A stretch of DNA of 64,000 nucleotides from Escherichia coli (GTDB taxonomy: Bacteria; Pseudomonadota; Gammaproteobacteria; Enterobacterales; Enterobacteriaceae). The position numbers and the translations under genes are program-made. Position 1 is the first letter of the stretch, and each line of letters begins with the position of its first letter. Below, piece by piece: positions 45,980 through 46,037 of this stretch. The stretch lies in the NCBI RefSeq assembly GCF_003334405.1, contig NZ_QOWM01000005.1; one strand, written 5' to 3'. Below the pieces are notes generated by a model that saw nothing but the letters and a program-made list of their open reading frames with translations, searched no databases and was not told the origin of the DNA.

Positions 45980-46037
45980 CATTCCCATAAACTCAGATCC
46001 TGCGTGAAGCAGCAGTAAATCTGAGTTTATGGGAATA
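45980..46037. promoter_or_regulatory. MelR operator: perfect 18-bp inverted repeat (attcccataaactcagat ... atctgagtttatgggaat) separated by 20 bp, upstream of melAB
   Basis: Inverted repeat read directly in the melA-melR divergent intergenic region; fits known paired 18-bp MelR sites. Confidence 0.6.

What the first reader, a model, noticed from the sequence alone, without database searches (positions are those of the whole stretch)
45980..46037. Perfect 18-bp inverted repeat in the melA-melR divergent promoter region
attcccataaactcagat and its exact reverse complement are separated by 20 bp, ~80-130 bp upstream of melA. This fits paired binding sites for the AraC-family activator MelR encoded divergently.
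Basis: partly seen in the sequence, partly recalled or inferred. Interest (0 to 1): 0.3.

Follow-up and report, generated by a model that had tools for sequence, protein, structure and literature searches.

The report
Known MelR operator sites 1 and 2
The perfect 18-bp inverted repeat is real, but it is the long-characterised pair of MelR binding sites (site 2 and site 1) of the E. coli K-12 melibiose operon promoter, so it is textbook and not new.

Summary
ATTCCCATAAACTCAGAT (45981-45998) and its exact reverse complement (46019-46036) are separated by 20 bp. This is the longest perfect inverted repeat in the 64-kb window and far beyond chance. The DNA is 100% identical to E. coli K-12 MG1655 and lies between divergent melA (alpha-galactosidase) and melR.

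Landmarks from Samarasinghe et al. 2008 (PMC2377442) place the arms exactly on published sites. Those landmarks are the melR -10 hexamer CATAAT, site 2 at -174.5 from the melR start, and the melAB start 237 bp away. Arm 1 is MelR site 2 and arm 2 is MelR site 1; by the arm spacing and recalled literature these are -62.5 and -100.5 from the melAB start. The weak CRP1 site sits in the spacer.

The 18-mer has G at positions 5 and 13, as published, and its orientation is opposite to site R, as published. In 78 MelR loci from many genera, the best site pair keeps 38-bp centre-to-centre spacing in 72. The arms are conserved and the spacer is not. Changes in one arm are not compensated in the other, so these are protein sites, not a hairpin.

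Novelty: already known. Interest is low.

The parts
45981..45998 (-). MelR site 2 (arm 1). Read on the - strand it is the consensus ATCTGAGTTTATGGGAAT, pointing towards melA. Its centre, 45989.5, is -62.5 from the inferred melAB start and -174.5 from the melR start.
   Evidence: PMC2377442 gives site 2 at -174.5, G at positions 5 and 13, and an orientation opposite to site R. Mean conservation is 1.53 bits across 73 loci.
46019..46036 (+). MelR site 1 (arm 2). It is the consensus ATCTGAGTTTATGGGAAT on the + strand. Its centre, 46027.5, is -100.5 from the inferred melAB start.
   Evidence: [quoted passage not shown] Mean conservation is 1.42 bits.
45998..46019 (.). CRP1, a weak 22-bp CRP site centred at 46008.5 (-81.5), exactly on the dyad of the repeat: TCCTGCGTGAAGCAGCAGTAAA. 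The key bases G7 and C16 are present.
   Evidence: PMC2377442 places CRP1 between MelR sites 1 and 2 and inactivated it at positions 7 and 16. Only 5 of 10 half-site bases match, and the spacer is poorly conserved at 0.27 bits. The exact register is inferred.
46039..46056 (.). MelR site 1', a weaker flanking site. The best match is 12/18, on the - strand (CTCTGCTTTTCAGGTAAT), centred at -120.5. Register and orientation are not settled here: an alternative + strand match of 10/18 lies at 46050-46067.
   Evidence: scan. Conservation is 1.01 bits, with strong blocks at 46047-46051 and 46053-46056. PMC2377442 confirms that a site 1' lies next to site 1 and is footprinted. The -120.5 position is from my memory of Belyaeva et al. 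2000.
45961..45978 (.). MelR site 2', a weak site overlapping the melAB -35 region that is occupied only with melibiose. Its nominal centre is -42.5. The sequence match to the consensus is poor (7/18 or fewer).
   Evidence: PMC2377442 establishes its existence, order and melibiose dependence. The coordinates follow from the recalled -42.5 position. Conservation is modest at 0.67 bits.
46157..46174 (+). MelR site R, TTCTGATATTCCAGGAAA (11/18; G at position 5, A at position 13). It overlaps the melR transcript start and mediates autorepression.
   Evidence: PMC2377442 reports consensus G at position 5, non-consensus A at position 13, HTH2 on the downstream half and an orientation opposite to site 2. 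It is invariant in six E. coli alleles.
46153..46158 (+). The melR promoter -10 hexamer CATAAT. The inferred melR transcript start is about 46164.
   Evidence: PMC2377442 gives 5' CATAAT 3'.
46112..46133 (.). CRP2, the CRP site at -41.5 of the melR promoter: AACCGTGCTCCCACTCGCAGTC, with 7 of 10 half-site matches.
   Evidence: PMC2377442 places CRP2 41 bp upstream of the melR start. Scored. The half-sites are conserved and the centre is variable among E. coli alleles.
45927..45939 (-). The inferred melAB core promoter. The transcript start is the A at 45927 (24-nt leader, AGGAG Shine-Dalgarno) and the -10-like hexamer CATGAT lies at 45939-45934.
   Evidence: Inferred from 237 bp between the two starts and site 2 at -174.5, combined with the sequence. 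It was not mapped here. The simple sigma-70 scan finds no consensus promoter, as expected for an activator-dependent promoter.
44548..45903 (-). melA, alpha-galactosidase, the first gene of melAB.
46186..47094 (+). melR, the AraC/XylS-family regulator that binds the repeat.

Best explanation
The two arms are MelR-binding site 2 (45981-45998) and site 1 (46019-46036) of the E. coli K-12 melAB-melR divergent regulatory region. Each 18-bp arm binds one MelR monomer through its two helix-turn-helix motifs. HTH1 reads the ATCTGAG half, including G5. HTH2 reads the GGGA half, including G13. Because the arms are inverted, the two monomers face opposite ways. A CRP dimer occupies the weak site on the dyad between them. 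Without melibiose, MelR fills sites 2, 1, 1' and R. The system is then poised, and MelR represses its own promoter through a four-molecule complex. With melibiose, MelR also fills the weak site 2' over the melAB -35 region, and MelR plus CRP activate melAB transcription. The repeat, the gene identities, the match to published landmarks and the cross-genus conservation are shown here. Binding, stoichiometry and the activation and repression logic are taken from the literature.
For: The repeat is exact and non-random. The locus is identical to MG1655 melA-melR, and the proteins pass the curated NCBIfam cut-offs.

PMC2377442 supplies the landmarks:
- the consensus 18-bp site is found at sites 1 and 2;
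- positions 5 and 13 are G;
- site 2 is at -174.5 from the melR start;
- the two starts are 237 bp apart;
- the melR -10 is CATAAT;
- CRP1 lies between sites 1 and 2;
- site R is opposite in orientation to site 2;
- one monomer binds per site;
- DNase I footprints cover sites 1, 1', 2 and R.

With the melR start set 6 bp downstream of CATAAT (46164), arm 1 is centred exactly at -174.5. Site R (G5, A13) falls on the start, in the opposite orientation.

The phylogenetic footprint agrees. In 78 MelR loci from Escherichia to Vibrio and Photobacterium, the best inverted pair sits 38 bp centre-to-centre in 72 and 39 bp in 4, although 25-60 bp was allowed. The arms carry 1.53 and 1.42 bits per position, against 0.27 for the spacer and about 0.33 for the flanks. 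G5, G13, G14, G15 and A16 are nearly invariant. The distance from site 2 to the melA ATG is 77-79 bp in 52 of 62 loci.
Against: Nothing points elsewhere, but there are limits.
- The original papers giving the site sequences and the -62.5 and -100.5 positions (Webster 1989, Caswell 1992, Belyaeva 2000, Grainger 2003) are not held. Identification therefore rests on one held paper plus positional arithmetic, with a possible 1-bp uncertainty in the transcript starts.
- The CRP1 sequence is a poor CRP match (5/10) and is barely conserved.
- The register and orientation of the weak sites 1' and 2' are not resolved by sequence.
Confidence: 0.97

Rival explanations
1. The repeat works as a nucleic-acid structure: a DNA cruciform, or an RNA hairpin such as a terminator or attenuator, rather than as protein-binding sites.
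For: As a single strand it folds to -21.6 kcal/mol, z = -7.9 against shuffles.
Against: It lies upstream of both inferred divergent transcript starts (45927 and 46164), so neither mRNA should contain it. There is no T-run and no terminator-like site, and no Rfam family matches there. Across 76 loci the two arms differ at a mean of 3.5 of 18 positions and are perfect in only one. In E. coli alleles, single changes in one arm are not compensated in the other. The conserved positions are the protein-contact blocks 1-7 and 13-16, not the stem as a whole.
Confidence: 0.01
2. It is a classical palindromic operator bound by one symmetric dimer of some other regulator, for example CRP alone or a LacI/GalR-type repressor.
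For: It has perfect dyad symmetry, and a CRP site is centred on the dyad.
Against: The half-site centres are 38 bp apart, with an unconserved 20-bp spacer. That is too far for one dimer of a standard HTH repressor. The arm sequence does not resemble the CRP consensus, and only 5 of 10 CRP bases match in the spacer. The literature assigns the arms to MelR monomers, with mutational and Fe-BABE support.
Confidence: 0.01
3. It is a remnant of a mobile element (terminal inverted repeats of a miniature element) or a chance palindrome with no function.
For: The 18-bp inverted termini are perfect.
Against: Only 20 bp lie between the arms. There are no other copies in the window. It sits at the same position relative to melA and melR in many genera, with constrained spacing, and it is far beyond chance.
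Confidence: 0.01

Closest known systems
MelR sites 1 and 2 of the E. coli melAB promoter (Busby laboratory: Webster et al. 1989; Belyaeva et al. 2000; Wade et al. 2001; Samarasinghe et al. 2008, PMC2377442)
   Same: It is the same locus and the same DNA. The window is 100% identical to MG1655. There are two identical 18-bp sites in inverted orientation, G at positions 5 and 13, site 2 at -174.5 from the melR start, and CRP1 between the sites.
   Different: Nothing differs. This is the described element itself.
AraC sites I1/I2 and O2 at araBAD-araC
   Same: Both involve an AraC/XylS-family regulator encoded divergently from its sugar operon, with 17-18-bp sites each read by two HTH motifs. In both, CRP sits between regulator sites, a ligand-dependent shift in site occupancy switches the promoter on, and autorepression uses distant sites.
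   Different: The AraC half-sites I1 and I2 are direct repeats bound by one dimer, and repression is a simple O2-I1 loop. In mel, the strong sites 1 and 2 are inverted and 38 bp apart, four MelR molecules are involved, and AFM argued for a compact complex rather than a loop.
RhaS/RhaR sites at rhaBAD/rhaSR
   Same: These are AraC-family sugar regulators with paired 17-bp half-sites upstream of -35 and CRP co-activation.
   Different: The Rha half-sites form one dimer site, as an inverted repeat separated by 16-17 bp. No CRP is sandwiched between the two regulator sites and there is no five-site array. This comparison is from general knowledge and was not tested here.

Membership tests
MelR operator sites 1 and 2 (E. 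coli melAB-melR regulatory region) | Two identical 18-bp sequences in inverted orientation, 38 bp centre to centre | tested here: met
   arms match 18/18 with a 20-bp spacer.
MelR operator sites 1 and 2 (E. coli melAB-melR regulatory region) | Located between divergent melA and melR | tested here: met
   (100% identity to MG1655, RefSeq annotation). (MelR equivalog and alpha-galactosidase both above their cut-offs).
MelR operator sites 1 and 2 (E. coli melAB-melR regulatory region) | The consensus 18-mer has G at position 5 (contact N222) and G at position 13 (contact R273) | tested here: met
   ATCTGAGTTTATGGGAAT has G5 and G13, as stated in PMC2377442. G5 is kept in 75/76 and 73/76 loci, and G13 in 68/76 and 67/76.
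MelR operator sites 1 and 2 (E. coli melAB-melR regulatory region) | Site 2 is centred at -174.5 from the melR transcript start, whose -10 hexamer is CATAAT, and its orientation is opposite to site R | tested here: met
   CATAAT lies at 46153-46158. A start at 46164 puts the centre of arm 1 (45989.5) at -174.5. Site R is on the + strand and site 2 on the - strand. The transcript start itself is inferred, with an uncertainty of about 1 bp.
MelR operator sites 1 and 2 (E. coli melAB-melR regulatory region) | A CRP site lies between the two MelR sites | tested here: inconclusive
   The dyad-centred 22-mer has G7 and C16 but only 5 of 10 half-site matches. The mean across taxa is 3.68, against 2.52 for shuffles. 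Function rests on the literature.
MelR operator sites 1 and 2 (E. coli melAB-melR regulatory region) | Physical occupancy by MelR (footprint, EMSA, Fe-BABE) | not testable with these tools
   Reported in PMC2377442, Figures 7 and 8, and in its references 7, 8 and 16.
AraC/XylS-type regulator site | An asymmetric site of about 17-18 bp with two conserved blocks about one helical turn apart, read by two HTH motifs in adjacent major grooves | tested here: met
   The conserved blocks are at positions 1-7 and 13-16, with variable positions at 8, 11, 12, 17 and 18.
Intrinsic terminator / structured RNA / REP element | A transcribed G+C-rich stem followed by a T-run, or a match to a curated RNA family, with stem complementarity maintained in evolution | tested here: not met
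   No terminator-like site and no Rfam hit at 45900-46200. Arm differences are uncompensated.
Palindromic operator for a single symmetric dimer | Adjacent half-sites within about 20 bp that are contacted by one dimer | tested here: not met
   The half-site centres are 38 bp apart and the spacer is unconserved.

The most novel reading that the evidence does not exclude
The element is known, but its population variation may not be. About 19% of complete E. coli genomes carry a roughly 85%-identical allele of the melA-melR intergenic region. In that allele the CRP1 spacer and the stretch between site 1' and CRP2 are largely rewritten and one arm carries 1-2 uncompensated changes, while the MelR protein can be identical to K-12. 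This could be a naturally occurring regulatory variant with altered CRP co-dependence or altered melR autorepression. I did not check whether this has been described.
Probability: 0.15. Interest if true: 0.3.

Novelty: already known. Interest (0 to 1): 0.05.

Why it matters
It matters only as a positive control. A reader working from raw sequence correctly picked out a genuine, experimentally characterised operator pair and named the right regulator. The mel regulatory region is a standard model for co-dependence on two activators (MelR plus CRP) and for AraC-family autorepression. No new biology follows from this finding. The cross-genus footprint made here (fixed 38-bp spacing, conserved ATCTGAG...GGGA core, unconserved spacer) supports the published contact map. 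It also shows that perfect 18/18 symmetry is a feature of the Escherichia lineage rather than a functional requirement.

Tried and rejected
Literature:
- I tried to read the primary papers carrying the site sequences and positions (PMC125794, PMC146657, PMC1447455, PMC1138231, PMC1133192). None is held.
- No supplementary text is held for PMC2377442.
- A full-text search for the site sequence found only unrelated primers.

Rejected readings:
- Hairpin or terminator.
- Mobile-element remnant.

Left unresolved or ignored:
- The simple sigma-70 scan finds no consensus promoter in 45850-46250. This is uninformative for activator-dependent promoters.
- I tried to fix the register and orientation of the weak sites 1' and 2' from similarity and conservation. 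The results are ambiguous: for 1', a - strand match of 12/18 at -120.5 competes with a + strand match of 10/18 at -131.5, and 2' never exceeds 7/18.
- Hit H40 (strain AQ15) is a mosaic of gene fragments and was ignored.

Full report
**1. Observation**

The + strand reads ATTCCCATAAACTCAGAT at 45981-45998 and ATCTGAGTTTATGGGAAT at 46019-46036. These are exact reverse complements separated by the 20-nt spacer CCTGCGTGAAGCAGCAGTAA. Perfect pairing stops at the arm ends, but a weaker 42-nt symmetry (76% complementary) continues outward (I1).

With up to 3 mismatches allowed, the 18-mer occurs nowhere else in the 64 kb. The expected count is 0.03, and 0 of 100 shuffles gave two matches. It is the longest perfect inverted repeat with a short loop in the window. 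The runners-up have 15-nt arms, and 100 block shuffles never exceeded 15.

**2. Context**

The region is 100% identical to E. coli K-12 MG1655 and is present in 5401 of 5426 complete E. coli genomes. RefSeq annotates melB, melA (- strand, window 44548-45903), melR (+ strand, 46186-47094) and adiA. The MelR and MelA translations pass NCBIfam curated cut-offs, at 635.8 against 253 bits and 735.9 against 486 bits. The repeat lies 78-133 bp upstream of the melA ATG, inside the 282-bp divergent intergenic region.

**3. Identification**

Samarasinghe et al. 2008 (PMC2377442) provide the following landmarks:
- MelR binds five 18-bp sites (2', 2, 1, 1', R).
- Consensus positions 5 and 13 are G, contacted by N222 (HTH1) and R273 (HTH2).
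- Site 2 is centred at -174.5 from the melR transcript start.
- The melR start is 237 bp upstream of the melAB start.
- The melR -10 hexamer is CATAAT.
- CRP1 lies between sites 1 and 2, and CRP2 is 41 bp upstream of the melR start.
- Site R overlaps the melR start, has G at position 5 and a non-consensus A at position 13, and is bound in the opposite orientation to site 2.
- Each site takes one monomer.
- DNase I footprints show occupation of sites 1, 1', 2 and R.

In the window, CATAAT is at 46153-46158. Placing the melR start at 46164 puts the centre of arm 1 (45989.5) exactly at -174.5, and puts the melAB start at 45927. That start is an A, with a 24-nt leader carrying AGGAG.

Relative to 45927, arm 1 is at -62.5 and arm 2 at -100.5. 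These are the values I recall from the earlier Busby papers, which are not held. The 18-mer read as ATCTGAGTTTATGGGAAT has G5 and G13.

A scan of the intergenic region with this 18-mer recovers TTCTGATATTCCAGGAAA at 46157-46174. It has G5 and A13, lies on the + strand and overlaps the start, so it is site R and is opposite in orientation to arm 1. The scan also recovers a 12/18 match at -120.5, which is site 1'. The dyad-centred 22-mer 45998-46019 carries G7 and C16, the positions mutated to inactivate CRP1, but it matches only 5 of 10 half-site bases. CRP2 (46112-46133) matches 7 of 10.

**4. Independent comparative evidence**

A protein-anchored scan returned 80 MelR loci. They include Escherichia, Citrobacter, Salmonella, Kluyvera, Klebsiella, Raoultella, Enterobacter, Pantoea, Serratia, Buttiauxella, Cedecea, Mangrovibacter, Providencia, Moellerella, Vibrio and Photobacterium.

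I searched the 700 bp upstream of each melR for the best inverted pair of consensus-like 18-mers, allowing any centre-to-centre distance from 25 to 60 bp. The distance was 38 bp in 72 of 78 loci and 39 bp in 4.

In an ungapped stack anchored on the pair, mean information content was as follows:

| Segment | Bits per position |
|---|---|
| Site 2 (arm 1) | 1.53 |
| Site 1 (arm 2) | 1.42 |
| Site 1' | 1.01 |
| Site 2' | 0.67 |
| Spacer | 0.27 |
| Outer flanks | about 0.33 |

Positions 1-7 (ATCTGAG) and 13-16 (GGGA) are nearly invariant in both arms. Positions 8, 11, 12, 17 and 18 vary. This is the two-block pattern expected for a two-HTH AraC-family domain. The distance from site 2 to the melA ATG is 77-79 bp in 52 of 62 loci that have a divergent melA.

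**5. Structure versus protein site**

The strand would fold well (-21.6 kcal/mol, z = -7.9). However, the repeat lies upstream of both inferred transcript starts. It has no T-run and no Rfam match.

Evolution does not preserve complementarity. The arms differ at a mean of 3.5 positions, and only one of 76 loci besides the window has a perfect repeat. Among E. coli alleles, single substitutions in one arm are not mirrored in the other; examples are ATTCCCGAAAACTCAGAT, ATCTGAGTTTATGAGAAT and ATCTGAGTTTATGGTAAT.

Arms within a locus are somewhat more alike than randomly re-paired arms (3.50 against 4.01 ± 0.10). This is expected if both are read by the same, slowly drifting protein, or simply from shared ancestry.

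**6. Mechanism**

This is taken from the literature and is consistent with the anatomy found here. In the absence of melibiose, MelR monomers occupy sites 2, 1, 1' and R. melR is then autorepressed by a four-molecule complex and melAB is poised. With melibiose, MelR also occupies site 2' over the -35 region, and it activates melAB transcription together with a CRP dimer held between sites 1 and 2.

**7. Verdict**

This is the already-described MelR site 2 / site 1 pair, so novelty is nil and interest is low. The exact 56-bp element is present in at least 2067 of 5400 complete E. coli genomes. The rest carry one or more changes, mostly in the spacer.

Things seen in passing are listed separately.

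Noticed in passing
window 45999-46018 and 46050-46125, compared with L002-L004: About 1012 of 5401 complete E. coli genomes carry an allele of the melA-melR intergenic region that is only about 85% identical. Divergence is concentrated in the CRP1 spacer (CCTGCGTGAAGCAGCAGTAA becomes CCTAAGTGGCACATCAATAG) and between site 1' and CRP2. The MelR sites, site R, the melR -10 and the leader are almost unchanged, and MelR itself can be identical to K-12 (WP_001090758.1 in strain AREA_505). It looks like a short recombinant or ancient polymorphic segment.
   Followed up: partly
L064-L072, L055, L056, L058, L061, L068, L044 (for example L066:1811-1866): Fourteen loci (in Citrobacter, Buttiauxella and Superficieibacter species), at least nine of them second copies in a genome that also has a melA-linked melR locus, encode MelR relatives 73-83% identical to K-12 MelR, with no melA within the 2-kb flank. 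They keep the same inverted pair of MelR-like sites at 38-bp spacing upstream. In L066 the upstream neighbour is a CigR-family gene, and I judged the 498-aa protein encoded downstream to look like an NhaC-type transporter from its sequence alone, without a search.
   Followed up: partly
L003 and L004 (locus 559-882) compared with window 46186: In the divergent-allele strains RefSeq starts melR 24 nt further upstream, giving 8 extra codons (WP_255090546.1, WP_255756424.1). The NCBIfam MelR profile also extends 7 positions beyond the K-12 N-terminus: K-12 residues 1-302 match profile positions 8-309.
   Followed up: no
window 10956-11002 (-): Rfam guanidine-II (mini-ykkC) riboswitch, 50.4 bits against a gathering score of 32.
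   Followed up: no
window 61433-61809 (+): Four tandem naRNA4 (CssrE, nucleoid-associated ncRNA, REP-type) matches at 100-bp spacing, scoring 95-111 bits.
   Followed up: no
window 55602-55767 (-) and 25187-25259 (+): A full-length match to the enterobacterial sRNA STnc630 (181.8 bits) and a tRNA gene.
   Followed up: no
window 34625-34658, 20943-20974, 52145-52174: These are the next-longest perfect inverted repeats in the window, with 15-, 15- and 14-nt arms and loops of 2-4 nt. At least 20943-20974 (AAAAAAGGCACGTCA...) looks like a bidirectional terminator hairpin.
   Followed up: no
window 46092-46107: A small palindrome, CCCTCT-GGGA-AGAGGG, lies in the poorly conserved stretch between site 1' and CRP2. 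It varies among E. coli alleles and has no obvious role.
   Followed up: no
L007 (NZ_CP043487.1, strain AQ15): The mel region of this 'complete' genome is annotated as a chain of about 20 short partial pseudogene fragments from widely separated K-12 genes (cadC, melR, pmrB, proP, phnF and others). It looks like an assembly artefact or an engineered or multiply deleted strain.
   Followed up: no
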